Source: an uncultured Patescibacteria group bacterium (lineage in GTDB: Bacteria; Patescibacteriota; Microgenomatia; UBA1400; PJMF01). Taken from it: DNA of 64,000 bases. The stretch spans positions 8,818 to 72,817 of the forward strand of contig CAJQIG010000001.1 of assembly GCA_905478415.1 (NCBI GenBank), given 5' to 3'. Shown here piece after piece: positions 8,599 through 23,847 of the stretch. The notes under the pieces were generated by a model that searched no databases, had not been told where the DNA came from, and saw only the letters and a list, made by a program, of their open reading frames with translations. Each line of letters opens with the position of its first letter. Position 1 is the first letter of the stretch. Position numbers and translations under genes: made by a program.

Positions 8599-8620
8599 TA
8601 CGTATTCCTTTTCTAATCAA

Positions 8621-8962: not shown

Positions 8963-9216
8963 CCTTTCACTAATTAAAGTATGTTGGGCAGGTGTTACAA
9001 AAAAAGCTACCTCACTAGTGGGCAGCTCTTGTTATAACGCTTTACTTTTGGTTGTAAATTGTATCAGATTATATCAGTAGTCTGGTGTATATCAAGAGAG
9101 AAATGTGATTTTGATATCCCGTAACTCTTGAGGTTGTACTATAATGGTGATTGTTAACCGAGATTTTTATATGAATCTTAATAATATATTTAGTCAAGAA
9201 AACAGAAAGCACAATT

Positions 9217-10794
9217 ATGTCTGGAGAACAAAAACGATTACTTGAAAAACAACTTTGGGCTGTAGCCAATGTTCTCCGGGGAAAAATGAATGCAGACGAA
9301 TATAAAAACTATATTCTTGGCTTCATTTTCTACAAATATCTTTCAGAAAAACTTGCTCGCTATATTGACGAAAAACTTCTGGCTAGTGAAAAATTCTCTT
9401 TTGCAGAGGTAGACGACTCAACTGACGAAGGTCAACATATTGTTGAGCATATTAAGAAAGCTACCATTGATCACTTGGGCTTTTTCCTCAAACCTACAGA
9501 GCTTTTTTCTTATATTGTCAGAAAAGGTAATGGCGAGATTAAAGGCCATGATACTTTTATTTTAGAAAACCTCAAAAATGTTCTTAACTCTATTGAGCAA
9601 ACCTCAATGGGCACAGCGAGTGAAGATGATTTTAAGGGACTATTTGATGACGTTGATTTAACATCCACAAAACTTGGTAAGTCAGAGAACAAAAAGAACG
9701 AGGTGATTGTTGAGGTTCTTACTTTGCTCAGTGGTATTGATTTTAAACTAGAAGACACCAAAAGTGATTTGCTCGGTGATGCTTATGAATATCTTATCGG
9801 TGAATTCGCAGCAGGAGCAGGCAAAAAAGGTGGTGAATTTTATACACCAGCTCAAGTTTCAAGACTTCTTGCAAAGATTGTGACCCATGGCAAAAAACGA
9901 GTTAAATCTGTTTATGACCCAACCTGTGGTTCTGGCTCTCTTCTTCTAAGAATTGGTGAGTATGCCGATGTTGTTTCCTACTATGGACAAGAACTTAACC
10001 CAACCACATATAACCTTGCTCGCATGAACATGATATTGCATGGGGTGCACTTTGATCATTTCAGCATTCGAAATGGAGATACCCTCGAAGATGACATGCA
10101 TTTAGACTTACAAGCAGAAGCAGTGGTGGCTAATCCTCCTTTTTCTGCAGACTGGAAAGGCGATAAAGATCCGACTCTAGCTCATGATGAAAGATTTGCT
10201 CAGTATGGAAGACTTGCTCCAAAAGGTAAGGCTGATTACGCATTTGTAACTCACATGCTTCACCATCTTTCAGATAGTGGAACAATGGCAGTGGTGCTAC
10301 CACATGGTGCACTGTTCAGAAGTGGCGCCGAAGGTACAATTCGAAAATATATTATTGAGAAGCAAAACTACCTTGATGCCGTCATAGGTTTGCCAGAAAA
10401 TCTTTTTTATGGAACAGGTATTCCAACTACAGTTTTAGTATTCAAAAAATGCAGACAGGAAGATGATGAAGTTTTGTTTATTGATGCATCCAATGGGTTT
10501 CAGAAGGTAGGTAATCAAAATCAGCTTAATGAGGAGCATCTAGAAAAGATATTTCAAACATATGTAAATAGGAAAGAAGTTGATAAATACTCTCACAGAG
10601 CAAGCTTAGAAGAAATTGTGGAGAATGACTACAATTTAAATATTCCTAGATATGTGGACACTTTTGAGCAAGACGATCCTGTTGACTTGGATTCAGTTTC
10701 AAATGAACTGAAATCTTTGCAGGAAGATGAGGAGAAATTAAAAAAAGATATTACTGACTTTTGCAGAAAATTAGGAATAGAAAAACCTTATTAA
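9217..10794 (+). CDS. hsdM: type I restriction-modification system, N6-adenine DNA methyltransferase subunit
   Basis: N-terminal HsdM domain, NPPF catalytic motif (VVANPPFSADW), AdoMet motif DPTCGSGSLLL. Confidence 0.9.
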   Translation: MSGEQKRLLEKQLWAVANVLRGKMNADEYKNYILGFIFYKYLSEKLARYIDEKLLASEKFSFAEVDDSTDEGQHIVEHIKKATIDHLGFFLKPTELFSYIVRKGNGEIKGHDTFILENLKNVLNSIEQTSMGTASEDDFKGLFDDVDLTSTKLGKSENKKNEVIVEVLTLLSGIDFKLEDTKSDLLGDAYEYLIGEFAAGAGKKGGEFYTPAQVSRLLAKIVTHGKKRVKSVYDPTCGSGSLLLRIGEYADVVSYYGQELNPTTYNLARMNMILHGVHFDHFSIRNGDTLEDDMHLDLQAEAVVANPPFSADWKGDKDPTLAHDERFAQYGRLAPKGKADYAFVTHMLHHLSDSGTMAVVLPHGALFRSGAEGTIRKYIIEKQNYLDAVIGLPENLFYGTGIPTTVLVFKKCRQEDDEVLFIDASNGFQKVGNQNQLNEEHLEKIFQTYVNRKEVDKYSHRASLEEIVENDYNLNIPRYVDTFEQDDPVDLDSVSNELKSLQEDEEKLKKDITDFCRKLGIEKPY

Positions 10795-12039
10795 ATGAAC
10801 AATAATTTCAACATAAAACCCTTATTTCCTCAGCTAAGATTTCCAGAATTCAAAGACCCTTGGCAAAAAAAACAACTTAGCGAAGTTGGAACTGTAGTTT
10901 CAGGTCTGACATACAAACCTTCTGATGTGGTAGATGATGGTATTTTAGTATTAAGGTCTTCAAATATCAGGAAGGCTAAACTTTCTTTCAAAGATAATGT
11001 TTATGTTAATCCCAAAACTGTTTCGTTTAATGCAGTAATGGAAAGCGATATACTAATTTGCGTTCGTAATGGCAGCAAGAGATTAATAGGGAAAAATGCT
11101 TTAGTCGATAAAAATGCTGAAGGATCAGCATTTGGGGCTTTTATGAGCGTATTTAGAAGTGAATCAAATAAATTTATCTTCCAACTTTTTAATTCAGATA
11201 CTTATAAGAAACAAGTTCACAGAAATTTAGGTGCAACCATTAACTCTATTAACGGCAGTGATTTAAAAAAATTCACTTTCGGTTTTCCATCAAAAGATGA
11301 GCAGGAAAAAATTGCTTCATTCCTCGCTTCTGTAGATAATTGGATTGAAAATTTAGAGAAGCAAAAAAACTCGCTTGAGGAATATAAAAAAGGAATTATG
11401 CAAAAAATCTTTTCTCAAGAGATAAGATTTAAGGATAAAAATGGGTGTGAGTACCCTGAATGGAAAAAAATCAAGCTTAGAAAGCTGTCAAAAGTAATTA
11501 CTAAGGGTACAACACCAACTAGTTTAGGTTTTTCATACCTAAAAGAAGGTGTTAATTTCATTAAGGCAGAAAACATTAATCAATACTCAGAAATTTCTAT
11601 TTCAGAAACAATGAAGGTCTCGTCTGAATGTAATCAAGCTTTAAGTAGATCATCTTTGGAAGAAAATGACATTCTATTTTCAATTGCAGGTACTTTGGGT
11701 CGTACGGCGATAGTGAAAAAAAAGGACCTTCCAGCTAACACCAATCAGGCTTTAGCAGTTATTAGATTGAATAGCACTGTAGATGTTTTCTTCATAGAAA
11801 AATTTTTAAATTCTCAAATGATTGAAAAATATATTTTACAAATGCTTTCAGTAGGTGCTCAACCAAATCTATCATTAAAACAAGTTGGAAATATTGAAGT
11901 CAACTTACCATCAATAAAAGAGCAAATGCAAATTGCTTCATTTCTATTTTCAATTGAGAATTTAGTCGAATCAAAAAGCAAGCAAATTACAAAAGCAAAA
12001 GAGTGGAAAAAAGGACTGTTACAACAAATGTTTGTATAG
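10795..12039 (+). CDS. hsdS: type I restriction-modification system, specificity subunit
   Basis: Two target-recognition domains separated by a conserved central helix (LEEYKKGIMQKIF) and a C-terminal repeat (AKEWKKGLLQQMF). ATG directly follows the hsdM stop. Confidence 0.85.
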   Translation: MNNNFNIKPLFPQLRFPEFKDPWQKKQLSEVGTVVSGLTYKPSDVVDDGILVLRSSNIRKAKLSFKDNVYVNPKTVSFNAVMESDILICVRNGSKRLIGKNALVDKNAEGSAFGAFMSVFRSESNKFIFQLFNSDTYKKQVHRNLGATINSINGSDLKKFTFGFPSKDEQEKIASFLASVDNWIENLEKQKNSLEEYKKGIMQKIFSQEIRFKDKNGCEYPEWKKIKLRKLSKVITKGTTPTSLGFSYLKEGVNFIKAENINQYSEISISETMKVSSECNQALSRSSLEENDILFSIAGTLGRTAIVKKKDLPANTNQALAVIRLNSTVDVFFIEKFLNSQMIEKYILQMLSVGAQPNLSLKQVGNIEVNLPSIKEQMQIASFLFSIENLVESKSKQITKAKEWKKGLLQQMFV

Positions 12040-12048
12040 ATAAAAGAT

Positions 12049-14844
12049 ATGGCACAATCAGAACTACAACTAGAAAATGAATTAATAGCACAACTTGGAA
12101 ACTTGGGTTTTGATAGGGTTTCTTTGCCAGATGTTGAATCACTAAATCATAACCTTAAATCACAACTAGAAAAGTTTAATAAAACAACTTTTTCAGATAC
12201 AGAATTCTCTCGCATACTCAATCACCTAGAAAAAGGTGATCGCTTTGTAAAAGCTAAGACTCTGCGTGATAGATTTGTGTTGACTCGAGATGACGAAACA
12301 AAGTTCTGGGTGCGATTTTTCAACATGGATAAGTGGTGTAAAAATGAGTATCAAGTTACCAATCAGGTTACGCAAGCTGGAAGGTATGAAAATCGTTATG
12401 ACGTTACTCTTCTCATAAATGGTCTTCCTTTAGTTCAAATTGAACTCAAGCGCCGTGGCGTTGAAATGAAAGAAGCTTTCAATCAGATTCAACGTTATCA
12501 CAAGCATTCTTTCTCTGGAACCCTATTCGAATATGTCCAGATTTTTATCATTTCCAATGGTGTAAATACAAAATACTTTTCTAATAATCCAAAACAATCA
12601 TTTGAACAAACCTTCTATTGGACAGATGAGGAAAACAAAAAGATCACTCAGCTCAATGAATTTGCAGAAGTATTTTTAGAGAAATGCAAAATCTCAGCCA
12701 TGATAGCTGAATATATTGTGTTACATGAATCACTAAAAATTCCAATGGTACTCCGCCCTTATCAGTACTATGCAGTCAGAGCTATTGAGCAAAAGGTTAA
12801 AGAAACTAACCAGAATGGCTATATTTGGCATACCACTGGTTCTGGAAAAACCTTGACTTCATACAAAGCCAGTCAGATTCTTTCACAGTTACCCGAAATT
12901 AAAAAAGTTATCTTTGTAGTTGATCGCAAAGACCTCGATATCCAAACAACAAAAGAGTTTAATCATTTTTCTGATGGTTCTGTTGATGGCACAGATAATA
13001 CTCGCAACTTAGTAAAACAACTCAAAGATCCTAATAGAAAACTCATCGTTACAACAATTCAAAAGCTAGATATTGCTGTTTCCAGAGAATCGTATCTTAA
13101 ACAATTTGAAGATCTTCAAGATGAAAAAGTAGTCATTATTTTTGATGAATGTCACCGTAGTCAGTTTGGATTAACCCACAATAGAATAAAGAGCCATTTT
13201 AATAAAGCCCAGCTCTTTGGATTTACTGGAACACCTATCTTCGCTGATAACAATGTTGGTGGGGTTACAACAAAAGATGTTTTTGGTGAATGCTTGCACC
13301 GCTACATTATTACCCACGCTATTGATGACAATAATGTGCTTGGCTTTGCAGTTGAGTATGTAGGTAAGTACAAGAAAAAAGACCCTGACACGCTAGATGC
13401 TGATATTTTTGCCGAAACAATGGTTGAAGGAATAGACACTAAAGAAGTTCTTGAAAGTGATGAGCGAATTCAAAAAATAGCTGAGTATATTCTTCATGAT
13501 TGGAGGCGTAAAACAAAGAATGGCAAGTTTAATGCTCTTTTTTGCACTCCAAGCATTGAGGTATTAAAGACATACTACACGCTACTTTCTGCTAAGAAAC
13601 CTAAAGATTTTAAAATCGCTACAATTTTTACCCACCAAGCAAATGAGGATGGTAGTGCAGATATGCTTGATGTTGACGTGTTTGCTGATAAGGATGATTC
13701 GTTAAATCAGCATTCAAGAGACTTCTTAGAAAGCTGTATCAAAAACTACAACAAAGATTTTGGCACTAATTACTCTACTGACCGATTCTATGATTATTAT
13801 CGAGATCTACAGAAAAGAATTAAAAACAAAGAAGTTGATCTAACTATTGTGGTGAACATGTTCTTAACTGGATTTGATAGCCCGAGACTTAACACTTTGT
13901 ACGTTGACAAGAATTTACGTTACCACGGATTAATCCAAGCATATTCTAGAACCAATCGTTTATTAAATTCTGATAAGCCTCATGGAAACATCGTTTCCTT
14001 TAGAAACCTTAAACTGAATACTGACAAAGCTCTGGCTTTGTTTGGTGATGAAAATGCTAAAGAAGTTGTTTTCAAAAAACCATATGAGGTTCAGAAAAAG
14101 GAATTTGAAGAAAAGCTTGCTCACTTACGAGTAAAAGTACCCACTGTTTCTTCAGTTGATGATTTGCGAGGTGAAGAAGATAAGGCTGCTTTTGTTAAAA
14201 GTTTTAGAGATTTGCTTCGTATTAAGTCATCATTAGAAACCTTTGCAGAATTCTCTTTTGATGACTTGGGAATTACAGAACAAGAATTTTATGATTACCA
14301 AAGTAAGTATCTTGATATTCATGAAGAAAGAAAAACTCACGAACCAGAAAAAGAATCTATACTTGATCAAATCGACTTTGAGTTGGAATTAACTGTTCGC
14401 GATGTAGTTGATTTTGATTACATTATTCAGTTGATTGCTGGACTTAAAGACATTAGCTCTGATGTGGTTCGTGAGAAGAAGACTGAAGATATCCTTAGAT
14501 TATTTGATCGCGATGTGAAACTTCGTAAAAAGAAAGAACTCATCCGTAAATTTATTGAAGAGAACCTACCTAAAATTAGAGAAGATGAAAATGTTGAAGA
14601 AGCCTTTGAGAAATTCTGGGCAAGTGAACGCTCATCTGCTCTGCGAGAAGTAGCACAAGCTGAAAATATTCCACTAGAAAAGTTTGAAAACATTATTGGC
14701 GAGTATCTATACACACAAAAACTCCCACATGGACAAGATATTGTTGATCTTCTCCCAGAAGCTCCAAGAATTCTTGAGCGCCAAAGTATTATAGATCGCG
14801 TGAGGAGTGCTATTGAGAATATTGTAGATATGTTTGAGTGGTAG
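12049..14844 (+). CDS. hsdR: type I restriction enzyme, endonuclease/helicase subunit
   Basis: Walker A HTTGSGKTLT, DEAH-box FDECHRS, 931 aa, downstream of hsdMS. Confidence 0.9.
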   Translation: MAQSELQLENELIAQLGNLGFDRVSLPDVESLNHNLKSQLEKFNKTTFSDTEFSRILNHLEKGDRFVKAKTLRDRFVLTRDDETKFWVRFFNMDKWCKNEYQVTNQVTQAGRYENRYDVTLLINGLPLVQIELKRRGVEMKEAFNQIQRYHKHSFSGTLFEYVQIFIISNGVNTKYFSNNPKQSFEQTFYWTDEENKKITQLNEFAEVFLEKCKISAMIAEYIVLHESLKIPMVLRPYQYYAVRAIEQKVKETNQNGYIWHTTGSGKTLTSYKASQILSQLPEIKKVIFVVDRKDLDIQTTKEFNHFSDGSVDGTDNTRNLVKQLKDPNRKLIVTTIQKLDIAVSRESYLKQFEDLQDEKVVIIFDECHRSQFGLTHNRIKSHFNKAQLFGFTGTPIFADNNVGGVTTKDVFGECLHRYIITHAIDDNNVLGFAVEYVGKYKKKDPDTLDADIFAETMVEGIDTKEVLESDERIQKIAEYILHDWRRKTKNGKFNALFCTPSIEVLKTYYTLLSAKKPKDFKIATIFTHQANEDGSADMLDVDVFADKDDSLNQHSRDFLESCIKNYNKDFGTNYSTDRFYDYYRDLQKRIKNKEVDLTIVVNMFLTGFDSPRLNTLYVDKNLRYHGLIQAYSRTNRLLNSDKPHGNIVSFRNLKLNTDKALALFGDENAKEVVFKKPYEVQKKEFEEKLAHLRVKVPTVSSVDDLRGEEDKAAFVKSFRDLLRIKSSLETFAEFSFDDLGITEQEFYDYQSKYLDIHEERKTHEPEKESILDQIDFELELTVRDVVDFDYIIQLIAGLKDISSDVVREKKTEDILRLFDRDVKLRKKKELIRKFIEENLPKIREDENVEEAFEKFWASERSSALREVAQAENIPLEKFENIIGEYLYTQKLPHGQDIVDLLPEAPRILERQSIIDRVRSAIENIVDMFEW

Positions 14845-14857
14845 TAAGGGAAAAAGA

Positions 14858-17116
14858 ATGTATATATCAAGGGTTTACATAAGGAACTATCGCAATTTTG
14901 AAGAGTTTGATTTATTTATTCCTGATGGAAGTCCTTTAACCATTATCGGTGGAAATAATTGTGGAAAAACTAATTTTCTCCAAGCCATCAGGCTTGTTTT
15001 AGATTCTGGCATAGCTCCTTGGGACAAAAGACTTACAGAAGAAGATTTTTGTTGGAGTATAGGTGAAGAACCTTGGAAAAGCGGCGAGCAAATTGTTATC
15101 ACAGTAACTTTTAGCAATGTTACTGATAAAGAGGAAATACAATCACTATTGCACTCAATTGCTCCTGTGTATGACGAGGAGAGTGTTTTGTCTTCTAAAT
15201 CTGCAGATAGTCTGGAAGCTAATATTTCATTTGTGTTTGCACCATCTACCTTGAACAAGGAAGGCGACTATGACCTGATCGAGGACTACATTAGTTTTCT
15301 AGTTGCTGGTCGGTATCATCCTTCTGGATATTATTACCTACCAGACGGTAGTACTAAGGAATATGGTGATACGGTTATTTCTGGCTTATATTCTTGTCCT
15401 AGTAAAGAGGAGTTCTACAAGTATTTTTATTTGTCAGAAGACAATATTAAAAAACTCGAGGATGATTCGTCAGCCACATTTGAAAAGCAACTTGCTAAAC
15501 AGTCGTATCCTAACAAGGTGCGAAAACACATTAATTTACTTGCTCTAGATGCTCTTAGGGATGTCAAAAACGACTTTTACTTCGGTTATCGTTCTTTAGT
15601 GTCACAACTAATCAGAGGCGGCATAAAAAATAGTAAAAAAAACCAGATATCCAAAGAGGTGTCTGCTGCTTTTAAGAACCTTAGAACAAGCGGAGCTATT
15701 CCTGAAGCTAACACCATTCTGGATGATATAGAAACAAGACTACAGAACAAAGACATAAATCTTTTGTCAGATAAAGCAGACTTAATTATTGGTACTCCCA
15801 GAGTCACTCTTGAGAATATCGGTCGCTATTTCAATTTCCTAGTTAATCTTAAGGAAGATTTGAAAAGCGACCAGGACATGGAGACCATTGGTCTTGGTTA
15901 TCAGAACCTTGCGTATATTTCTGCCATTTTTGCCCTTTTTGAACTGAAGAAGGAACTTTCTTTAAATGATACCGATGAGAAAATTCGTATTGTATATAAT
16001 CTGCTACTGATCGAAGAACCAGAAGCACATCTGGATGTTCAAAATCAAAAGTATCTTCATACTCAAATCGAAAACAAGACGCAGAAATTGATGGAAGTGA
16101 AAGCGGCCGATGATGATGAAACTGAGGGTGAAGATGCTCCACAGTTTTTTGCATTTACTCAAGTAATTCAAACTTCTCACTCAACTCACTTAGCTTCCAA
16201 ATCTGACTTAAAAAATCTTGTTGTATTACAAAAAGGTGTCAATCAAGCAAGAGCTATAAACATTGATAGTGTATTACGACTTGATGATGACACATACAGC
16301 CACAATAGGAGAATATTAAAACAGTATCTTGATGCTACAAGGTCTTCATTACTCTTTGCAAGAAAAGTAGTTTTAGTTGAAGGACTCTCTGAAAAATATT
16401 CAGTAGGTACCCTTATTAACACGCATTTAAAGCAACAACGTCCTGAGAGCAATGTTGACATCGATAGCGAAGGAATTGAGGTTGTTGAGGTGGGTGGAAA
16501 GATCTTTGAGCCATTTAATGCCCTTTTTCAGAATGACCAATCTATTGGGCTTAACAACAAATGCTTGAATCTCCGAGATGGAGATTCTCATTTAGAGTCT
16601 CAAGTAGTCGCTGATTATGAGACAAAATACAACGACCTTAATCCTTCCTCTACTACCACACCTCAGCTGGATACTAAAAAAAACATTTACACCTTTGAAA
16701 TCGACTGTTTTTTCTTACCAATACCAGAAGATATAACTAGAAATAATATTGAGTATCTCAAGCTTATTTTGTATAGGTTTATGAAGGATGGAGACTACTT
16801 CAAAACAGATGACACTTTTACAAGGAAACTAGCTGCGATTGATAGCTTTGCCCAAGAGATTGTTAATCATGGAGTAGACAAGGACAAGTTTGAGAAGTTT
16901 TTCACAGATATTCTAGGCCATGAAGTCTCTAAGCCTTCCATATCTTTATATCTGTCCTCTTTGCTGAAAGCTAAATTGCTCGAAGACGTTACTGAAATTG
17001 AAACTTGGGGTGACACTCCGGACACAGAAGTTGGCATTACACCTTTTAGTGACCTGTCTGAGTTCATCATGCCCAAGTACATCAAAGATGGAATCTCATG
17101 GCTAATTACAGACTAA
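14858..17116 (+). CDS. OLD-family ATPase-Toprim nuclease, GajA-like (Gabija / class 2 OLD)
   Basis: Walker A TIIGGNNCGKTN, D-loop LLLIEEPEAHLD, Toprim ARKVVLVEGLSEKY. ATG at 14858 with an AAGGGA RBS 13 nt after the hsdR stop; the track ORF uses a TTG at 14834. The stop overlaps the UvrD-like gene by 19 nt. Confidence 0.7.
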   Translation: MYISRVYIRNYRNFEEFDLFIPDGSPLTIIGGNNCGKTNFLQAIRLVLDSGIAPWDKRLTEEDFCWSIGEEPWKSGEQIVITVTFSNVTDKEEIQSLLHSIAPVYDEESVLSSKSADSLEANISFVFAPSTLNKEGDYDLIEDYISFLVAGRYHPSGYYYLPDGSTKEYGDTVISGLYSCPSKEEFYKYFYLSEDNIKKLEDDSSATFEKQLAKQSYPNKVRKHINLLALDALRDVKNDFYFGYRSLVSQLIRGGIKNSKKNQISKEVSAAFKNLRTSGAIPEANTILDDIETRLQNKDINLLSDKADLIIGTPRVTLENIGRYFNFLVNLKEDLKSDQDMETIGLGYQNLAYISAIFALFELKKELSLNDTDEKIRIVYNLLLIEEPEAHLDVQNQKYLHTQIENKTQKLMEVKAADDDETEGEDAPQFFAFTQVIQTSHSTHLASKSDLKNLVVLQKGVNQARAINIDSVLRLDDDTYSHNRRILKQYLDATRSSLLFARKVVLVEGLSEKYSVGTLINTHLKQQRPESNVDIDSEGIEVVEVGGKIFEPFNALFQNDQSIGLNNKCLNLRDGDSHLESQVVADYETKYNDLNPSSTTTPQLDTKKNIYTFEIDCFFLPIPEDITRNNIEYLKLILYRFMKDGDYFKTDDTFTRKLAAIDSFAQEIVNHGVDKDKFEKFFTDILGHEVSKPSISLYLSSLLKAKLLEDVTEIETWGDTPDTEVGITPFSDLSEFIMPKYIKDGISWLITD

Positions 17117-19041
17117 AACTAGGAACAGATTTTGACCTATCACCGAAACAGATAGAGATAGTAGAGCGCAATAAAGATACTTTAGTTCGTGCACTCCCAG
17201 GTAGTGGTAAAACGACTATCTTAACTCTCAAAATAAAAAACCTATTACTAGATAATCCTCAGCTAAATAAATTATGCTGCATATCTTATACCAATGTAAA
17301 TGTAGAAGACCTGGAATCTAGTTGTTCACTTATTCTAGACAGTGAGCAAATAAAAAAAATTGATTTCTTAACATTCCATAGTTTTTGCTTACAGTACATT
17401 TTGACTCCATTTTCTTATCTTTACAGGAGCAGCAAGGGACTTAGACCGTATAAAAAAATCTTTAACTTCGGCGAGCATGGATCAGATCTCATTGATTACT
17501 TAAGTGACAAAGGTGTTGAAACAGCTGAGATTCAAAAAATTATTGATACTGAAAAGATTTATTACAATTTCAAGTTTATAAATAACTCCTGGAAAATAAC
17601 CAGCAATACCCATAAGGCATCTACCGTCAGTAAATACCTCAACTTTTTAAATTCCGAAAGACTCATAGACTTTAACTTGATCAGCCTTTTATCTCTATTC
17701 ATAGTTCAACAGAACCCTGTTGTTCGGCGCGTTTTAAATAAGTCCATTGATTGGATGTTTATTGATGAGTTCCAAGATGTTTCAGAGATACAATGCAAAA
17801 TAATTGAAGCTCTTAGTAAGAGTCGCATGAAGAATAACTCAGAGACGAAGTGGTTTATGGTTGGAGATCCAAATCAGTCAATTTATGGCTTTGCCGGAGC
17901 AAACCCTAGAAGTATGTACGATATGCGTAACTTCTTTAAAATGTTACACGATGGCGAAGAGTGTGAAATTAAGCTCGATAAAAGCCACCGTTGTTCTGAT
18001 GAGGTTTTTGAATTCGCTAAAAAGAATTACAACTCTGTTTTGCGTAAAGTCAAAAATTCACAACTGGTTCAACAGTTGCCAGGAGAGGATATTGTCGGGT
18101 ATTTAGAGGATATGGAGATTGCAGACGACTTGCAAGGAAACGGTGGTGACGGAAAAGTAATTATTAAAACTACCATTTCAGCCGTGAGTGAGATTGTAAA
18201 CTTAAAGTTTAATGAGTTACTAGATCAGGAAGTCTGTTGTATTGGTATCAATCGTTTTAATTCTATCGATGTTTATAAGCAATATATGCTTCATGACAAC
18301 ACCGATGAAGGAGACGGCTTTAGCCTCTACGCCGAACTTTATAAAGATTACGAAGAGAGATATGGGTTCAAATACTTTTCACTTTTTGTTAGATACTTAA
18401 TCTTAAAACACCATTTTTACAACAACAGACTCAAGTATCAGAAGTCACTTGAGAAATTTATTTACTCTTTGGGCTTGCTTCTCTCGGATAAATTAAATGT
18501 TGAAATGCAGCCACAAGTACTATCAAGTATTACTGTTGATGCCATCGAAATAACTTCACCACTGGCCCCGACAAGCACTGTCTTTGATGAGTTTATTGGC
18601 TTTACTGGTCGATTAGTTACAAGCTTGAATAGTAATTTGGAGTTTACTGATGGAGAGGAAGCTATCTTTAGCACAATCTCAGAAGCTGACAGGATAACCA
18701 ATATCAATGGTGTTACTGAGCCAACGCTCGCTAACTTCATCGCCTACATTACTCGATCAACTCCTGAGAAGCTAACTTTTGAAATAAAGCATATTCATAA
18801 GATTAAGGGCTTGGAATATGAACAGGTTATTGTTCAAAGAATTGAAGATCTTCCTCATAAGTCAAACTACGGAGTACATTTTGCTATCTTTGGAACAAGG
18901 TCGTTTCAGGCAAATGCTGGTCAAATCTATGACTACGTCCAGGAACTCAATAAGCTCTATGTCATGTTAACAAGACCAAGAAAGAATCTTTATATTATAA
19001 AAAATCAATATAAGCAAAGTCATTTTTTGGCTGCTCAATAA
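17098..19041 (+). CDS. UvrD/Rep-family helicase, GajB-like partner of the OLD/GajA-like nuclease
   Basis: Walker A ALPGSGKTTIL, motif II IDEFQDVSEIQ, C-terminal UvrD_C-like region; translationally coupled to the upstream OLD-family gene. Confidence 0.7.
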   Translation: MANYRLKLGTDFDLSPKQIEIVERNKDTLVRALPGSGKTTILTLKIKNLLLDNPQLNKLCCISYTNVNVEDLESSCSLILDSEQIKKIDFLTFHSFCLQYILTPFSYLYRSSKGLRPYKKIFNFGEHGSDLIDYLSDKGVETAEIQKIIDTEKIYYNFKFINNSWKITSNTHKASTVSKYLNFLNSERLIDFNLISLLSLFIVQQNPVVRRVLNKSIDWMFIDEFQDVSEIQCKIIEALSKSRMKNNSETKWFMVGDPNQSIYGFAGANPRSMYDMRNFFKMLHDGEECEIKLDKSHRCSDEVFEFAKKNYNSVLRKVKNSQLVQQLPGEDIVGYLEDMEIADDLQGNGGDGKVIIKTTISAVSEIVNLKFNELLDQEVCCIGINRFNSIDVYKQYMLHDNTDEGDGFSLYAELYKDYEERYGFKYFSLFVRYLILKHHFYNNRLKYQKSLEKFIYSLGLLLSDKLNVEMQPQVLSSITVDAIEITSPLAPTSTVFDEFIGFTGRLVTSLNSNLEFTDGEEAIFSTISEADRITNINGVTEPTLANFIAYITRSTPEKLTFEIKHIHKIKGLEYEQVIVQRIEDLPHKSNYGVHFAIFGTRSFQANAGQIYDYVQELNKLYVMLTRPRKNLYIIKNQYKQSHFLAAQ

Positions 19042-19066
19042 ATATTAAGTAATAAACAATCTATAT

Positions 19067-20578
19067 ATGCAAATTTCTAAATCCGACTACATGCTCTTTC
19101 TTCGCCATCCTGCATGGTTGTGGCTAAAGAAGTATGACAAAAATAAATTACCTCCAGTTGATGACAATACGCAAGCCATGTTTGATGCAGGTCATGACTT
19201 TGAACAATATGCTGAAAGCCTATTTCCCAATGGGGTTCGACTTGGGTTCAATAACTATGATGAGTACTTGAGTTTACCTGCTCGGACTCAGCAAGCTTTA
19301 CAACAAGGCGCAGAAGTTATTTTTCAGGGAAGGTTTGAAGTTGATAGCTTAACTTGTATAACTGACGTATTGTTCAAGCATCCTGATGGCACTTTTGATC
19401 TAATTGAGATCAAAGCCAGCACCAAAGCTAAGCCAGAATATGAATATGATCTTGCTTTTCAACTCTTGGTATTAGAAAAAGCAGGTCTAAAGATCCGCAA
19501 TGTAGCTGTGATGCATGCAAACAAAGAATATGTGCGTGAGGGGGAAATTGATCCTGCTGGTTTGGTTGAAAAAACAGATATTACAGATAAAGTTCGCACC
19601 TTGATGAGCTCTACACTTTTACAAGTAGATATGGCTCTTGAAGTTTTGGCAAATAAAACTATGCCAGATGTTTCACCAAGATATATCAATCAACTTGGTA
19701 TTCCAAACAAATCATCACAATGGCTTGAAGAATGGATGGAGATTTTCAAAAACATCAAAGGTGAATATGACACCTATTCCATTTACAACCTTGCCTATCC
19801 AAGCCCTGAGCAACTTGGGAAACTAGAAGATCTTGGTATTTCTTCAATTCACGATATGACGGAAGACCAAGCTTTAAGAGATAAACAAAGGGTGCAGATT
19901 AGAACCACGAAAACTGGTCAACGAATTATTGATAAAGATAAGATTAAAGCTTTCTTGGATACATTCCAGTATCCACTTTACTTCTTTGATTACGAAACAC
20001 TCTCAACAGTAGTTCCTCAATTTGATGGTTATAGTCCATACAAGGATTATCCATTCCAATACTCATTACATGTAATTGAAAGCTCAGGTGCAGAAGTAAA
20101 ACACTTGGAGTATTTGCACAACCAAGCCAGTGATCCAATGCCAGGATTACTAGCTCAGCTTAAGCAAGATATTGGCGATTCTGGTACTGTGATTGCCTGG
20201 AACATGAGTTATGAAAAAGGTTGTAATGATCGAATGGCTGAGTTGTTTCCAGAATATGCAGATTTCCTGGCAGACCTTAATGATCGTATAGATGATTTGA
20301 TGACCCCTTTTGCCAAGATGTGGTTTTTTGACAAAGATTTCTTTGGCAGTGCCTCGGTCAAGAAAGTTATGCCCGTTTTAGCACCTGAGTTAAGCTACAA
20401 AGAGCTCAATGTTTCTGATGGCTTACTAGCTCGCAGAATGTGGACACAAACCGTTTTGGAAGGAAAAAACAGAGAAAGACGACCAATGATTTTGGATGAT
20501 TTAAGTCGTTACTGTACACTTGATACTTTTGCGATGGTGAGGATATTGGAGGAGTTAAGAAAGATTGTTACTACCTAG
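19067..20578 (+). CDS. RecB/Cas4-like PD-(D/E)xK nuclease fused to a DnaQ-like DEDDy 3'-5' exonuclease (DUF2779-like architecture)
   Basis: PD-(D/E)xK element FDLIEIKAST in the N-terminal half. C-terminal half has Exo I YFFDYETLS, Exo II-like VIAWNMSYE and Exo III YCTLDT (YxxxD). Confidence 0.5.
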   Translation: MQISKSDYMLFLRHPAWLWLKKYDKNKLPPVDDNTQAMFDAGHDFEQYAESLFPNGVRLGFNNYDEYLSLPARTQQALQQGAEVIFQGRFEVDSLTCITDVLFKHPDGTFDLIEIKASTKAKPEYEYDLAFQLLVLEKAGLKIRNVAVMHANKEYVREGEIDPAGLVEKTDITDKVRTLMSSTLLQVDMALEVLANKTMPDVSPRYINQLGIPNKSSQWLEEWMEIFKNIKGEYDTYSIYNLAYPSPEQLGKLEDLGISSIHDMTEDQALRDKQRVQIRTTKTGQRIIDKDKIKAFLDTFQYPLYFFDYETLSTVVPQFDGYSPYKDYPFQYSLHVIESSGAEVKHLEYLHNQASDPMPGLLAQLKQDIGDSGTVIAWNMSYEKGCNDRMAELFPEYADFLADLNDRIDDLMTPFAKMWFFDKDFFGSASVKKVMPVLAPELSYKELNVSDGLLARRMWTQTVLEGKNRERRPMILDDLSRYCTLDTFAMVRILEELRKIVTT

Positions 20579-20608
20579 TAAAAATGAAATGTAAGGTAAA
20601 ATTAAATT

Positions 20609-22858
20609 ATGGCTACATTATTTAAAGAGGTTAACTATAACTTATCAACACTGATTCAACAAATTGACTTAGGAATTATCGGATTACCCGACATTCAACG
20701 TCCTTTTGTATGGAAAGATACTAAAGTTAGAGATTTATTTGACTCTATGTATCGAGGGTATCCGGTTGGGTACTTCTTATTTTGGGCAAATGGTTATCAG
20801 GAAAATACTAAAACAATCGGTGATCAAAATAAACAAAAAGCAGCCCAGCTTCTTATTGTCGATGGACAGCAACGATTAACCTCACTTTTTGCTGTAATGA
20901 AGAGTAAAAGCATTATTCGTGAAAATTATGAAACAGAAAACATCGTTATTTCATTCAAGCCTCTTGAGGAGAAGTTTGAAATACCTGATGCTGCCACAAA
21001 AAGAAGTCCTGAATACATTCAAAATATATCTGAACTTTGGAGTCCAGATATTAACATCTTTTCATTCACTCAGAATTTTATCGAGAAACTACAACAAACT
21101 CGAGAACTATCTGGTCAGGAAATAAATCAAATTCAAGAATCAATCAGCAGACTAAAAAATTTGGAGCATTATCCATTTTCAGTTCTTGAACTATCAGCTG
21201 CTATTGATGAAGAACAAGTTGCTGATGTTTTTGTGAGAATTAATAGTCAAGGTAAAAAACTTAACACAACAGATTTTATCTTGACATTAATGTCTGTTTT
21301 CTGGGAGGAAGGAAGAAAAGATTTAGAAAACTTCTGTGCAAGCGCACGGCAACCAAACACAAGCGAAGCATCTGCATTCAATTACTTGATTACTCCAGAT
21401 CCAGAGCAAATGTTGAGAGTGAGCGTCGGTTTTGGTTTTAGAAGAGCAAGAATGAAGTATGTCTATAGTATCTTGAGGGGTAAAGATTTAGAAACTGAGG
21501 AATTTTCTGAAGAACGAAGAGATCAACAGTTTGAAAAATTAAAAAATGCTCAAGCAAAAGTCTTAAGTCTAACTAACTGGCATGAGTTCCTCAAAGCATT
21601 GCAAAGAGCAGGTTATGTACGCTCTGACTACATTAGTTCACAAGTAAATGTTCTTTATGTATACGCAATGTATTTAATTGGTAAGTATGATTTTGAGGTT
21701 CCACTGTTTGAACTGAGAGAAATAATTGCTAGATGGTTTTATATGACCTCACTTACAGGACGATATACTGGATCACCAGAATCTCAGATGGAGGCGGACT
21801 TGGCAAACTTAAGAGATATTTCTACAGCTGAAGAATTTGTTTCACTTCTGGATAAAATAATTGCAACTCAATTTACGAGTGACTTCTGGCAGATAAATCT
21901 TCCAAATGATTTAGCTACTAGTTCTTCAAGAAGTCCCTCTCTTTTTGCTTACTATGCTGCGCTAAATGTGTTGGATGCAAAGGGTTTGTTTTCTCAACTT
22001 AAGGTTTCAGATTTGCTTCATGCCGGATTGAAGTCAAATAAATCAGCACTAGAGAAGCATCATCTTTTCCCAAAAAATTACTTGGTGAACATAGGTATTG
22101 AAGATCAACGTGTTCGTAATCAAATTGCTAACTTTGCCTTAGTTGAATGGAGTGACAATATTAAGATTTCAGATAGTTCCCCGCAAGAGTATATGGAGAT
22201 CATGAAAGAACGATTCGATCATGATGAACTTCGTGAAATGTATTATTGGCACGCATTACCCGATGACTGGCAAAACATGAATTATGATGAATTTCTGGAG
22301 GTGAGAAGGCAAAAAATAGCAGATGTTATCCAAACTGGATATAACAAACTATCTAGCATAGATCCAGAGGTAGATGCTGAAATTACGTCAATAGATCAAT
22401 TAATTCAAGGTGGTGAGTCAGAAAATATCGAGTTTAAATCCACTATGCGCGTTAATCTCTATACAAATGCAAAAGATCAAAAAATTGAAATGGCTTTTCT
22501 AAAAACAATTGCAGCTTTTCTGAATACTAATGGAGGAGTACTTGTTGTCGGAGTAAATGATGATGGAGAGTCATTAGGCTTGGATCCTGATGGTTTTGAA
22601 AACAGTGATAAATTTTATCTACACGCTGTGAATCTTATTAGAGACAAAATGGGTTCAGAGAATGCTTTGTATATTCATCCTCAGTTTGAAGATTATGTGG
22701 GAAAGCAGATTTTCGTAGTTAAATGCAAACCTGCACTAAAACCTGTATATGTAAAAGACCAAGGTCAAGAAAAATTCTATGCAAGAACAGGAAATAGTAC
22801 TACTGAATTGAATGGTCGAGAGTTAGAGGACTATATTAATCTGAGGTTTAGAAGGTAG
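20609..22858 (+). CDS. GmrSD-type modification-dependent (type IV) restriction protein: DUF262 + DUF1524 with a C-terminal AlbA_2/Schlafen-like domain
   Basis: DUF262 DGQQRLTS motif at about residue 90; C-terminal HNH-like DUF1524 region (HHLFPKNYL...N...EW); terminal about 150 aa (SENIEFKSTMRVNLYT...GGVLVVGVNDDG) resemble the AlbA_2 putative DNA-binding domain. Confidence 0.7.
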   Translation: MATLFKEVNYNLSTLIQQIDLGIIGLPDIQRPFVWKDTKVRDLFDSMYRGYPVGYFLFWANGYQENTKTIGDQNKQKAAQLLIVDGQQRLTSLFAVMKSKSIIRENYETENIVISFKPLEEKFEIPDAATKRSPEYIQNISELWSPDINIFSFTQNFIEKLQQTRELSGQEINQIQESISRLKNLEHYPFSVLELSAAIDEEQVADVFVRINSQGKKLNTTDFILTLMSVFWEEGRKDLENFCASARQPNTSEASAFNYLITPDPEQMLRVSVGFGFRRARMKYVYSILRGKDLETEEFSEERRDQQFEKLKNAQAKVLSLTNWHEFLKALQRAGYVRSDYISSQVNVLYVYAMYLIGKYDFEVPLFELREIIARWFYMTSLTGRYTGSPESQMEADLANLRDISTAEEFVSLLDKIIATQFTSDFWQINLPNDLATSSSRSPSLFAYYAALNVLDAKGLFSQLKVSDLLHAGLKSNKSALEKHHLFPKNYLVNIGIEDQRVRNQIANFALVEWSDNIKISDSSPQEYMEIMKERFDHDELREMYYWHALPDDWQNMNYDEFLEVRRQKIADVIQTGYNKLSSIDPEVDAEITSIDQLIQGGESENIEFKSTMRVNLYTNAKDQKIEMAFLKTIAAFLNTNGGVLVVGVNDDGESLGLDPDGFENSDKFYLHAVNLIRDKMGSENALYIHPQFEDYVGKQIFVVKCKPALKPVYVKDQGQEKFYARTGNSTTELNGRELEDYINLRFRR

Positions 22859-22861
22859 TGT

Positions 22862-23233
22862 ATGAAAATTGATGAAGCTGTAATTGCGTTTAAACTAAAT
22901 AAAACCTACAAACCCACAATGACTCCGATGCAACTCTATGATGCAACAAGGCATTCATGGAAGGTGGGAGAAAGAAGAAACTCAGCAGAGTATGCTTTTG
23001 CTGTATTTCAGGGAGAAGTTAAGGAAGTATACAAAATTGCTATTTGGCTTCCTCAAAACTCAACATTAAATACGAAAGATAAGGAAAACATTGAGGATAA
23101 AACTATAAATACTGATAGATGGGAATTTGTTGGTACAATTGCACCTGAGAAAATCAGATATAAATATATTGGAAAAGATATATCTGATTTTTTCAAAAGT
23201 AAACAAAATCCAGTTGCTTATATCAACTGCTAA
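22862..23233 (+). CDS. hypothetical 123-aa protein tightly linked (3-nt gap) to the GmrSD-like gene
   Basis: ORF only; no recognisable motif. Confidence 0.35.
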   Translation: MKIDEAVIAFKLNKTYKPTMTPMQLYDATRHSWKVGERRNSAEYAFAVFQGEVKEVYKIAIWLPQNSTLNTKDKENIEDKTINTDRWEFVGTIAPEKIRYKYIGKDISDFFKSKQNPVAYINC

Positions 23234-23685
23234 AACACTTTAAATTCAATAGCAATGCCAGCATTCTCACAAACTTTTGCTATAAAACTATCTCGATCTG
23301 CTCTTCTCGATTGTTTATGGGTGAAATCATTAAGCTCGATTAACTGAACTGTCTCAAGTGTATTTTTATCAACGAGTACAAAATCAATAGATTTTTTGTT
23401 GATTTTATTCCAATGCGTATAGAAGTTTTTTTGATCCGTTGTTTTTACGAGTTTATCCAGCTTAACCTGTGGGAAGATGTAATAATTTTGTGCATACTGC
23501 TGTTCTAGCTGACGAAAGTATTTTTGTTCGGAGGGAGTCATGATTGAATGAGTTTTTTCATACGGTAAGTACGAGTCCTTATTAGCTTTTAAAGCACGTT
23601 TTAAAAGTCTGAAAAGAACAGCTATAGTAAAAAGCGCTAGTAAATATGGAAACAGTGAAATAAGTGGTTGAAACAAATCTGACAT
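23230..23685 (-). CDS. DUF2726-like (NERD/PD-(D/E)xK-like) domain protein with N-terminal membrane anchor
   Basis: N-terminal TM (LISLFPYLLALFTIAVLF), then SIDFVLVD ... LIELND ... R.DRD pattern recalled as typical of DUF2726. Confidence 0.45.
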   Translation of the reverse strand: MSDLFQPLISLFPYLLALFTIAVLFRLLKRALKANKDSYLPYEKTHSIMTPSEQKYFRQLEQQYAQNYYIFPQVKLDKLVKTTDQKNFYTHWNKINKKSIDFVLVDKNTLETVQLIELNDFTHKQSRRADRDSFIAKVCENAGIAIEFKVF

Positions 23686-23847
23686 AGATTCAGTATAGCA
23701 ATCTCTTGAGTTTTAGTGTGGAGCAATGAGTTTAATACTTATTTGCTCTAAGAGATTAATGGGTTGTCGTATCTCCCATCACACTATTGATATAAAGAAA
23801 CAAAAGAACAATATGTTAGTAGTAAATCTGATAGAATGTGAGTACTT

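What the first reader, a model, noticed from the sequence alone, without database searches (positions are those of the whole stretch)
19067..20578. Fusion of a RecB/Cas4-like PD-(D/E)xK nuclease with a DEDDy 3'-5' exonuclease (DUF2779-like), embedded between Gabija-like and GmrSD genes
The N-terminal half carries a FDLIEIKAS PD-(D/E)xK core. The C-terminal half carries DnaQ-like Exo I (FFDYETLS), Exo II-like (AWNMSYE) and Exo III (YCTLDT) motifs. Two nuclease activities in one 503-aa protein, in a defence context, suggests either an effector or an accessory to a neighbouring system; I recall no characterised role.
Basis: partly seen in the sequence, partly recalled or inferred. Interest (0 to 1): 0.7.

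Follow-up and report, generated by a model that had tools for sequence, protein, structure and literature searches.

The report
Two-nuclease DUF2779 protein trailing defence operons
This gene encodes a member of the known but untested DUF2779 family, which joins a Cas4-like nuclease to a proofreading-type exonuclease; it is not part of the neighbouring Gabija or GmrSD-like systems, but in related genomes it repeatedly sits as the last gene behind many different restriction and anti-phage gene sets.

Summary
The ORF (19067-20578, + strand, 503 aa) is real and all four quoted motifs are present. It is a full-length member of Pfam DUF2779 (E 1.5e-37).

The architecture is not new. It was described computationally in 2014 and 2026, and I found no experimental work.

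It is not a Gabija or GmrSD component. In the closest relative (94% identical) the Gabija pair is exactly replaced by one AAA_13 gene, and the downstream cassette differs too.

Across 80 related loci, mostly Patescibacteria, the gene usually ends a co-directional array of changing restriction or defence cassettes:
- a defence gene at -1 in at least 34 of 76 loci
- co-oriented in 35 of 37 loci
- almost none downstream

The same pattern appears on plasmids of other phyla. Some lineages instead keep the gene beside rpoD or typA.

Best reading: a motor-less, two-headed DNA-end exonuclease acting after DNA breakage, as a generic rather than system-specific partner. The function is inferred, not shown.

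The parts
19067..20578 (+). DUF2779-family gene, 503 aa: the two-nuclease protein
   Evidence: ORF; translation; Pfam PF11074 129.1 bits against cut-off 23.3; AF2 model pLDDT 89.1, pTM 0.82
19067..19621 (+). N-terminal Cas4/RecB/Exo5-like PD-(D/E)xK nuclease domain (aa 1 to about 185). Invariant D100 (nt 19364-19366), E114 (19406-19408), K116 (19412-19414), plus D128 and Q132. Only one cysteine (C97), so no 4-Cys Fe-S site.
19622..19966 (+). Helical linker region (aa about 186-300) containing a possible helix-hairpin-helix-like motif, LGKLEDLGISSIHDM (aa 250-264)
   Evidence: Secondary structure of the model. Consensus L-x3-G-I-x4-D-I-P in alignment A2. The HhH reading is inference from the sequence and was not tested.
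19967..20575 (+). C-terminal DnaQ/PolB-type 3'-5' exonuclease domain (aa about 301-503). Exo I D308/E310 (nt 19988-19996); Exo II N379..E383 (E383 at nt 20213-20215); Exo III Y482..D486 (nt 20510-20524); an additional invariant D410.
9217..14844 (+). Context: Type I restriction-modification operon hsdM (9217-10794), hsdS (10795-12039), hsdR (12049-14844), heading the same co-directional array
   Evidence: Pfam N6_Mtase/HsdM_N, Methylase_S, HSDR_N/SWI2_SNF2/EcoR124_C
14834..19041 (+). Context: Gabija-like pair, GajA-like OLD ATPase-TOPRIM (14834-17116) and GajB-like UvrD helicase (17098-19041). A swappable cassette (DNA homology to L001 is lost over 14856-19077).
   Evidence: PADLOC GajA 2e-64, GajB 1.8e-50; Pfam; blastn blocks
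20609..23685 (.). Context: downstream variable cassette. DUF262 (GmrSD_N)+Schlafen AlbA_2 protein (20609-22858, +); 123-aa ORF resembling the C-terminus of PD-T4-3 (22862-23233, +); DUF2726 protein (23230-23685, -).
   Evidence: Replaced by unrelated genes in L001; the first two genes are shared with L031.

Best explanation
The gene encodes a stand-alone, motor-less, two-headed DNA nuclease of the DUF2779 family. An N-terminal Cas4/Exo5-like PD-(D/E)xK domain is expected to act as a 5'-end or ssDNA exo/endonuclease. A helical linker joins it to a C-terminal DEDDy (DnaQ/PolB-type) domain, expected to act as a 3'-5' exonuclease. Both active sites look intact.

It is not a dedicated subunit of the adjacent Gabija or DUF262 systems. 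It is a conserved gene between two variable cassette slots. It is probably co-transcribed as the last gene of whichever restriction or defence cassette lies upstream; here that is hsdMSR-gajAB.

The most likely role is processing or destroying free DNA ends after DNA has been broken. That could mean degrading invader DNA cut by the upstream systems, resecting or repairing self-inflicted breaks, or both. This is a RecBCD/AddAB-like back-end function without the helicase.

Shown: gene, folds, residue conservation, cassette replacement, directional association with defence genes. Inferred: catalytic activity, polarity, substrate, co-transcription, and any functional coupling to defence.

For: Active sites: D100, E114, K116, D128, Q132, D308, E310, E383, D410, Y482 and D486 are invariant in 55 sequences at 31-66% identity.

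Not system-specific: window and L001 (94% aa) share hsdM, hsdR and DUF2779, but the Gabija cassette (14856-19077) is replaced by an AAA_13 gene and 20558-23823 is replaced as well. L003 has PLD-SNF2 plus a type IIG methyltransferase there, and L031 a Ppl-like gene.

Directional association: recognised RM or defence gene clusters occupy 33% of positions -1, -2 and -3, against 5% at +1 and 0% at +2 to +10. They are co-oriented in 35 of 37 loci. The median gap to the co-oriented -1 gene is 13.5 nt, with many 1-4 nt overlaps. Eight of 10 further -1 genes hit PADLOC models: HamB, HEC-06, REase_III, AriA, GajB, PbeA, PDC-M36A and Ppl.

Same pattern elsewhere: Type III Mod-Res(-PLD or DUF2130)-DUF2779; QatABCD-DUF2779 on an Aliarcobacter plasmid, ATPase-DUF2779 in Helicobacter, helicase-ATPase-DUF2779-PLD in Planktothrix.

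Two copies occur in five genomes. L073 and L079, on one contig, share 90.7% nt identity confined to the ORF, each behind a different cassette.

No terminator-like site lies in the intergenic gaps between gajB, the DUF2779 gene and the next gene.

Literature: both domains are predicted active in a family member that is quasi-essential in JCVI-syn3.0, which suggests a basic DNA-metabolism role.
Against: - I found no biochemical or genetic data for any family member.
- The family is not in PADLOC 2023; only weak Cas4 hits were returned.
- In several clades the gene lies in non-defence contexts: rpoB-rpoC-dnaG-rpoD (L059, L069), typA (L049, L061, L063, L074), and FKBP/DUF1905 (L047, L050-52, L075, L080). 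One distant member (P0203) is in a non-defence context as well.
- The association statistics use loci that are phylogenetically related, selected as the 80 best matches, and annotated mainly for recurrent neighbours.
- SIR2-HerA, among the upstream systems, is not known to make DNA ends, so a single 'clean-up' logic may not fit every partner.
- DEDD domains can also act on RNA.
Confidence: 0.5

Rival explanations
1. Housekeeping repair or replication nuclease with no functional link to defence. Under this reading the gene is simply a conserved anchor next to an integration hotspot where defence cassettes accumulate.
For: - Conserved at 83-94% aa, like the flanking core genes, while the cassettes on both sides change.
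- Housekeeping neighbourhoods in several clades: rpoD/dnaG, typA.
- A family member is quasi-essential in the minimal Mycoplasma cell, and a transposon mutant was recovered in a Mycoplasma bovis cell-culture screen.
Against: - A passive hotspot should accept cassettes in either orientation and with ordinary intergenic spacing. Observed: 35 of 37 co-oriented, median gap 13.5 nt, frequent stop/start overlaps.
- The association recurs on plasmids of Campylobacterota, Cyanobacteria and Bacillota, and in distant family members.
- Some genomes carry two copies, each behind a different cassette.
- No att-like repeats bound the cassettes.
Confidence: 0.25
2. Autonomous single-gene defence nuclease. 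It would itself recognise and degrade invading linear or unprotected DNA, and would cluster with other systems only because defence genes form islands.
For: - Strong defence-island neighbourhood.
- Plasmid-borne copies.
- Multi-copy genomes.
- Fusions to restriction-type domains.
- Absent from 50,697 phage genomes.
Against: - No sensor or regulatory domain is evident in the model.
- The strongly polar position (defence genes upstream, not downstream) and translational coupling suggest an operon tail, not an independent unit.
- Conserved housekeeping contexts in some clades, and quasi-essentiality in Mycoplasma.
- Not in PADLOC, including its candidate PDC and HEC sets.
Confidence: 0.17
3. A dedicated third component of the adjacent system: a 'GajC'-like effector of Gabija, or a partner of the GmrSD-like protein.
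For: - Gaps of 25 nt to gajB and 30 nt to the DUF262 gene, with no terminator between them.
- An OLD+UvrD pair also lies directly upstream in L009, L005 and L048.
- A DUF262 gene is adjacent in L007, L031 and L078.
Against: - Only 4 of about 80 loci have a Gabija-like pair upstream, and 4 have a GmrSD-like neighbour.
- The closest relatives (L001, L003, L031; 83-94% aa) lack Gabija at that position, and L001 lacks the DUF262 gene.
- From my own knowledge, characterised Gabija works as a two-gene GajA/GajB system.
Confidence: 0.04
4. An RNA-processing or nucleotide-salvage nuclease. DEDD domains include many RNases, and CPR bacteria and Mollicutes depend on nucleotide salvage. The enzyme would recycle nucleic acids rather than act in defence or repair.
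For: - The family is abundant in reduced-genome lineages.
Against: - The best structural matches are DNA polymerase proofreading domains, MrfB, and Cas4/Exo5/Dna2 DNA nucleases.
- The operon partners are overwhelmingly DNA-targeting enzymes.
Confidence: 0.04

Closest known systems
DUF2779 / PF11074 family (e.g. MMSYN1_0389 of JCVI-syn3.0; family F.17 of Majorek et al. 2014)
   Same: Same Pfam family (129 bits). Same two-domain order: Cas4-like PD-(D/E)xK followed by a DEDD exonuclease with Tyr in Exo III. The same conserved D/E/K and DEDD residues are described in PMC13621843 and PMC3985635.
   Different: The window protein is the compact form of about 500 aa. The Mollicutes branch is longer: its Cas4-like part runs to about aa 380, and the NCBIfam UU173_fam model is matched only at 49.9 bits against a cut-off of 225. 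The defence-operon context documented here is not mentioned in either paper.
Cas4 (CRISPR adaptation nuclease, PF01930) and solo-Cas4 / ACE1
   Different: - Pfam score is below the gathering threshold (21.1 against 22.7).
- No 4-Cys Fe-S cluster: one Cys in the domain.
- No cas1 or cas2 among the genes annotated beside it (9217-24345).
- No CRISPR array anywhere in the 64-kb window.
- Carries an extra exonuclease domain.
TM0106 / COG2251 family (RecB-like nuclease + PF13482 RNase_H_2 exonuclease)
   Same: Same kind of architecture: PD-(D/E)xK followed by a PolB-related 3'-5' exonuclease. Majorek et al. note the same DUF83 co-occurrence for both families. One homologue (P0253) also touches PF13482.
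   Different: TIGR03491 is matched at only 25.4 bits against a cut-off of 97.45, so this is a separate family. COG2251 proteins often carry AAA/helicase domains, which this protein lacks.
DnaQ / family-B polymerase proofreading domains and MrfB
   Different: Not attached to a polymerase. Glu replaces Asp at Exo II. Tyr is used (DEDDy), whereas MrfB and epsilon use His. No sequence-level match to any PDB chain, even with a profile.
RecBCD / AddAB / AdnAB end-processing machines
   Same: Works-like comparison only. They combine nuclease activity against both strand polarities at DNA ends. From my own knowledge, RecBCD degrades DNA cut by restriction enzymes. The AdnAB nuclease domain is a weak Foldseek match (E about 1e-2).
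   Different: No helicase motor and no Chi-recognition domain. The 3'-5' activity would come from a DEDD domain rather than a second RecB domain. Not a member of these families.

Membership tests
Pfam DUF2779 (PF11074) | HMM score above the curated gathering threshold | tested here: met
   129.1 bits against 23.3, profile covered 1-126/126
Pfam DUF2779 (PF11074) | Two-domain architecture: N-terminal PD-(D/E)xK followed by a C-terminal RNase H-like exonuclease, as described for the family | tested here: met
DEDD (DnaQ-like) 3'-5' exonuclease superfamily, DEDDy subgroup | Exo I DxE, Exo II acidic residue, Exo III Yx3D, on an RNase H-like fold | tested here: met
DEDD (DnaQ-like) 3'-5' exonuclease superfamily, DEDDy subgroup | Metal-dependent 3'-5' exonuclease activity | not testable with these tools
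   Needs enzyme assays
Cas4 (PF01930 / DUF83) | HMM score above the gathering threshold | tested here: not met
   21.1 bits against 22.7, E 3.6e-4. PADLOC Cas4 models only at E 5e-5 to 1e-4.
Cas4 (PF01930 / DUF83) | RecB-type D...ExK catalytic motif on the restriction-endonuclease-like fold | tested here: met
Cas4 (PF01930 / DUF83) | Four-cysteine Fe-S cluster site | tested here: not met
   The whole protein has only C97, C386 and C483. No conserved Cys quartet in A2.
Cas4 (PF01930 / DUF83) | Genomic association with cas1/cas2 and a CRISPR array | tested here: not met
   The annotated neighbours over 9217-24345 are RM, Gabija and DUF262 genes. No CRISPR-like array in the 64-kb window. The rest of the window was not scanned for cas genes.
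Gabija system (as a third component) | Conserved co-occurrence with gajA and gajB | tested here: not met
   A Gabija-like pair lies upstream in only 4 of about 80 loci. The cassette is replaced in the 94%-identical relative L001.
   Only GmrSD_N plus SLFN AlbA_2 were detected. The best PADLOC hit is HEC-05.
NCBIfam UU173 family / TM0106 family (TIGR03491) | Score above the curated cut-off | tested here: not met
   UU173_fam 49.9 against 225; TIGR03491 25.4 against 97.45
RecBCD/AddAB-type helicase-nucleases | SF1 helicase motor fused to or complexed with the nuclease | tested here: not met
   No NTPase domain in the protein. This is a works-like analogy only.

The most novel reading that the evidence does not exclude
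DUF2779 proteins are a widespread, unrecognised, shared back-end exonuclease module. Many unrelated DNA-targeting immune systems (Type I, IIG, III and ISP restriction, Gabija, Hachiman, SIR2-HerA, PrrC-like ATPases, Qat) would carry it as their last gene. It would finish off cleaved invader DNA, or repair collateral self-damage, in bacteria that lack a RecBCD-type machine. That would make it a motor-less functional analogue of RecBCD which moves between defence cassettes.
Probability: 0.22. Interest if true: 0.75.

Novelty: new member of a known kind. Interest (0 to 1): 0.42.

Why it matters
The protein is one more member of a large, catalogued family, and the two-nuclease architecture is already in print.

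The pattern found on the way may be new. In Patescibacteria, and on plasmids of several other phyla, this gene sits with striking polarity at the 3' end of many different restriction and anti-phage operons. No paper I could search reports this, and the family is absent from PADLOC.

If the link is functional, it points to a shared DNA-end-destroying or end-repairing step downstream of many immune systems in small-genome bacteria. It would also give a testable role to a DUF family with thousands of members, one of which is quasi-essential in the minimal synthetic cell. If the link is only positional, the gene is still a useful marker for a defence-cassette hotspot in CPR genomes.

Tried and rejected
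- **PDB sequence searches** with the protein and with a 55-sequence profile found nothing. Homology to solved structures is visible only at fold level.
- **Phage origin:** PHROGs gave no hit and tblastn against 50,697 phage genomes gave none, so I dropped a phage-borne or anti-defence origin. Thirty-one IMG/VR contigs do encode relatives. I did not verify that they are viral.
- **Dedicated Gabija or GmrSD partner:** rejected by cassette replacement in the closest relatives.
- **Bona fide Cas4:** rejected. The score is sub-threshold, there is no Fe-S cysteine set, no cas genes lie beside it and the window has no CRISPR array.
- **Recombination sites:** no att-like or other repeats bound the cassettes. 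Only chance-level matches and the internal hsdS repeat were found.
- **Separate transcription signals:** no terminator-like site lies in the intergenic gaps flanking the gene. Promoter-like sites were fewer than in shuffled sequence, so that scan is uninformative.
- **Literature on a defence link:** searches for 'Cas4-like' + DEDDh + defense, for PF11074, and of the Cas4 phylogenomics paper found no prior description.
- **RecBCD/AddAB in Patescibacteria:** a search found nothing usable. The idea that these genomes lack RecBCD remains untested.
- **Active-site geometry:** model coordinates are not exposed to scripts, so I could not measure it.
Full report
**1. The observation**

An ATG-started ORF of 503 codons occupies exactly 19067-20578 on the + strand. 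Its translation contains all four quoted motifs: FDLIEIKAS, FFDYETLS, AWNMSYE and YCTLDT. The reverse strand is closed by stops.

The gene is real beyond doubt. At least 2496 proteins match in the 5.8-billion-protein collection, the best at about 82% identity over the full length. In the 50%-clustered library, 7403 cluster representatives match at E<=1e-3 and 2040 at E<=1e-30.

**2. What the protein is**

Family searches gave the following.
- Pfam assigns DUF2779 (PF11074; 129 bits against a cut-off of 23.3) to aa 305-430. It gives a just-sub-threshold Cas_Cas4 hit (21.1 against 22.7 bits) to aa 100-183.
- NCBIfam gives only sub-threshold hits to the UU173 family and to the TM0106 RecB-like nuclease family.
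- PADLOC gives only weak Cas4 hits. PHROGs gives nothing.

An AlphaFold2 model built on 49 homologues is confident (mean pLDDT 89.1, pTM 0.82). It has three parts: an alpha/beta domain (aa 1 to about 185), a helical linker (about 186-300) and a second alpha/beta domain (about 301-503).

Structure searches confirm both folds.
- Foldseek agrees: Cas4 at E 5e-5, then Exo5, ACE1 and AdnAB.
- No solved chain covers both halves (query TM-score at most 0.25). No PDB chain is detectable by sequence, even with a profile.

In an alignment of 55 full-length homologues at 31-66% identity, only 18 columns are invariant. They include:
- the PD-(D/E)xK set D100, E114 and K116, plus D128 and Q132;
- the exonuclease set D308/E310 (Exo I), E383 (Exo II, in the motif N-x3-E), Y482/D486 (Exo III), and an additional D410.

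Both active sites are therefore under strong purifying selection.

The protein has three cysteines in all and one in the N-terminal domain. The Fe-S cluster typical of Cas4 is absent.

The linker contains LGKLEDLGISSIHDM, whose L-x3-G-I-x4-D-I pattern is conserved. It looks like a helix-hairpin-helix DNA-binding motif. This last point is my inference and was not tested.

**3. What is already known**

The architecture has been published twice.
- Majorek et al. 2014 placed DUF2779 (their family F.17) in the 3'-5' exonuclease clade of the RNase H-like superfamily. They noted that it co-occurs with DUF83, a PD-(D/E)XK domain (PMC3985635).
- A 2026 mSphere paper analysed the quasi-essential JCVI-syn3.0 gene MMSYN1_0389. 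It concluded that this is a DUF2779 protein made of a Cas4-like nuclease lacking the full Cys set plus a DEDD nuclease with Tyr in place of His. It predicted both to be active and described the family as functionally uncharacterised (PMC13621843).

Only seven papers in the library mention DUF2779, and none reports an experiment on its function.

**4. Context in the window**

The gene is the sixth of eight co-directional genes with tiny gaps:

| Gene | Coordinates | Gap to next gene (nt) |
|---|---|---|
| hsdM | 9217-10794 | 0 |
| hsdS | 10795-12039 | 9 |
| hsdR | 12049-14844 | -11 |
| gajA-like OLD ATPase | 14834-17116 | -19 |
| gajB-like UvrD helicase | 17098-19041 | 25 |
| DUF2779 | 19067-20578 | 30 |
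| DUF262 + Schlafen-AlbA_2 protein | 20609-22858 | 3 |
| 123-aa ORF resembling the C-terminus of PD-T4-3 | 22862-23233 | |

A DUF2726 gene lies on the opposite strand at 23230-23685. No terminator-like site lies in the gaps on either side of the DUF2779 gene. The window has no CRISPR array. No repeats bound the cassettes.

**5. Is it part of Gabija or of the DUF262 system? No.**

A scan of one genome per species returned 529 confirmed loci, of which the best 80 (50-94% identity) were kept. They are mostly Patescibacteria/CPR MAGs.

The closest relatives share the window's left flank, a cluster that includes a type-IV-secretion-pilin gene (window 4392-8962). They also share the DUF2779 gene at 83-94% aa identity. 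The genes in between differ:

| Locus | Genes between the left flank and DUF2779 |
|---|---|
| Window | hsdMSR + Gabija pair |
| L001 | hsdMSR + one AAA_13 ATPase |
| L003 | PLD-SNF2 helicase + type IIG methyltransferase |
| L031 | a single Ppl-like gene |

At DNA level, window and L001 align over 7040-10799, 11950-14855, 19078-20557 and 23824 onward. The Gabija pair (14856-19077) and the downstream DUF262 cassette (20558-23823) are therefore two swappable cassettes. The DUF2779 gene is the conserved piece between them. Only four of the loci have an OLD+UvrD pair directly upstream (window, L009, L005, L048), and four have a DUF262 neighbour.

**6. What the neighbourhoods do show**

I called ORFs in all loci, clustered them and annotated recurrent neighbours with Pfam and PADLOC.

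The gene immediately upstream is very often the last gene of a restriction or defence module. These include:
- Type I restriction (11 loci)
- PLD-SNF2 + type IIG methyltransferase (10 and 7 loci)
- MmeI + DEAD helicase + T5orf172
- Type III Mod-Res
- Type ISP restriction
- Gabija-like pairs
- SIR2-HerA
- AAA_13 ATPases
- Hachiman HamB (E = 0)
- AriA/OLD-like proteins
- HEC-06/DUF262 proteins

The positional statistics are strongly polar.
- Using only the recurrent clusters, recognised defence genes fill 33% of positions -1, -2 and -3. They fill 5% of +1 and 0% of +2 to +10.
- 37 of 76 loci have at least one such gene within three genes upstream.
- In 35 of those 37 loci they are co-oriented with DUF2779 (binomial 1e-8). 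The loci are related to one another, so this is not a true probability.
- The median gap to the co-oriented -1 gene is 13.5 nt, with many 1-4 nt stop/start overlaps.

Eight of 10 further, previously unannotated -1 genes also hit PADLOC models. That raises the count to at least 34 of 76 loci with a defence gene at -1.

The pattern is not confined to this clade.
- More distant members (39-43% identity) sit behind UvrD-Mod-Res-PLD and Mod-Res-DUF2130 arrays.
- One member is fused to DUF2726/REase_MTES_1575 directly behind a Type III Mod-Res pair.
- On annotated plasmids the gene follows QatABCD (Aliarcobacter), an AAA ATPase next to a HaeIII RM system (Helicobacter), and a DEAD helicase plus ATPase with a PLD gene after it (Planktothrix). 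It also lies in HerA/AAA/helicase/dGTPase and NERD/AAA/phosphoesterase clusters.

Five genomes in the sample carry two copies. L073 and L079, 80 kb apart on one contig, share 90.7% nucleotide identity confined almost exactly to the ORF. Each lies behind a different cassette.

**7. Counter-evidence**

A neighbour-joining tree shows whole clades where the gene sits in stable non-defence contexts:
- after rpoB-rpoC-dnaG-rpoD (L059, L069)
- next to typA (L049, L061, L063, L074)
- between FKBP/c41 and c39/DUF1905 genes (L047, L050-52, L075, L080)

One distant member (P0203) is in an ordinary metabolic neighbourhood, and another (P0164) is in a mobile-element region. A family member is quasi-essential in a minimal Mycoplasma.

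The family is therefore not exclusively a defence family. A basic role in DNA metabolism is likely.

**8. Mechanism**

I commit to the following. The protein is an active two-headed DNA nuclease. The Cas4/Exo5/Dna2-like domain attacks 5' ends or single-stranded DNA. The DEDDy domain removes 3' ends. Together they can consume or resect a DNA end from both strands without a motor.

It is most likely co-transcribed with the cassette upstream and acts after DNA breakage. It would either destroy invader DNA cut by the restriction enzymes, Gabija and similar systems, or process self-inflicted breaks for repair. From my own knowledge, this is the job RecBCD/AddAB does alongside restriction in model bacteria.

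- Shown: gene, folds, residue conservation, cassette swapping, polar association.
- Inferred: activity, polarity, substrate, co-transcription, functional coupling.

Confidence is about 0.5 overall. It is higher (about 0.8) for 'both nuclease sites are functional' and lower (about 0.4) for 'functionally coupled to the upstream systems'.

The rivals are a purely positional hotspot anchor (0.25), an autonomous single-gene defence nuclease (0.17), a dedicated Gabija or GmrSD component (0.04), and an RNA or salvage nuclease (0.04).

**9. Novelty and score**

This is a new member of a known, uncharacterised family, and the fusion itself is already described. The added value is the polar, cross-phylum association with many different restriction and defence operons. 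I found no paper reporting it, and PADLOC 2023 does not list the family.

That makes it a reasonable candidate for follow-up, but not a categorically new kind of thing. Interest 0.42.

Noticed in passing
window 9217-23685: A 14.5-kb defence island lies between a conserved gene cluster that includes a type-IV-secretion-pilin gene (4392-8962, minus strand) and a GNAT gene (23848-24345). It holds Type I RM, Gabija, DUF2779, DUF262-Schlafen, a PD-T4-3-like fragment and DUF2726. Related genomes keep both flanks but fill the island differently, so it behaves as a defence-cassette hotspot with two variable slots.
   Followed up: yes
window 10795-12039 (hsdS) versus L001 3761-4987: HsdM and HsdR are 86% and 98% identical to those of L001. 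HsdS is only 28% identical, and DNA homology breaks within hsdS (10800-11949). The specificity subunit has been swapped while the rest of the Type I system was kept.
   Followed up: partly
window 20609-22858: The 'GmrSD' neighbour has a GmrSD_N (DUF262) domain and a C-terminal Schlafen AlbA_2 domain, with no DUF1524 nuclease domain detected. Its best PADLOC match is the candidate system HEC-05. It is not a canonical GmrSD.
   Followed up: partly
window 22862-23233: A 123-aa ORF matches only the C-terminal half (positions 133-252 of 256) of the PADLOC PD-T4-3 model (E 1e-15). It may be a truncated or split defence gene. A 73%-identical copy exists in L031.
   Followed up: no
window 23230-23685 (minus strand); P0149 / L120 8001-9872: A DUF2726 gene lies 2.6 kb downstream of the DUF2779 gene. 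Elsewhere a DUF2779 protein is fused to a DUF2726/REase_MTES_1575 domain, directly behind a Type III Mod-Res pair. This is a Rosetta-stone-type hint that the two nuclease families are functionally connected.
   Followed up: partly
L073 9997-11473 and L079 9997-11471 (same contig, JBBDPM010000004.1): Two DUF2779 paralogues in one genome share 90.7% nucleotide identity. The homology is limited almost exactly to the ORF, and each copy lies behind a different cassette. Four other genomes in the sample also have two copies (L001/L010, L007/L020, L057/L067, L015/L032).
   Followed up: partly
L001, L003, L007, L010, L014, L031 and other loci (record titles): Several of the closest MAGs are titled 'Pseudomonadales' or 'Gammaproteobacteria'. 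Yet one isolate is named HK-STAS-PATE-15, its contig is about 1.08 Mb, and the gene content is shared with Patescibacteria. The window is about 37% G+C. The taxonomic labels look unreliable, and the window most likely comes from a CPR/Patescibacteria genome.
   Followed up: no
L085-L115 (IMG/VR contigs): Thirty-one contigs classed as viral in IMG/VR encode DUF2779 relatives, while none of 50,697 curated phage genomes does. These may be misclassified host islands or prophage-adjacent DNA. Not checked for virus hallmark genes.
   Followed up: no
L005, L006, L008, L009, L012, L014, L020, L028, L057: In one clade the DUF2779 gene is followed by a secreted-looking trypsin-like protease. In L005, L006, L009, L012, L014 and L020 a 360-aa Cys-rich (zinc-ribbon-like) protein with no Pfam hit follows within the next two genes. 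This is a conserved right flank of unknown meaning.
   Followed up: no
window 14834 (gajA start): The GajA-like ORF is called from a TTG that overlaps the hsdR stop by 11 nt, and gajB overlaps gajA by 19 nt. The true start codons were not verified.
   Followed up: no
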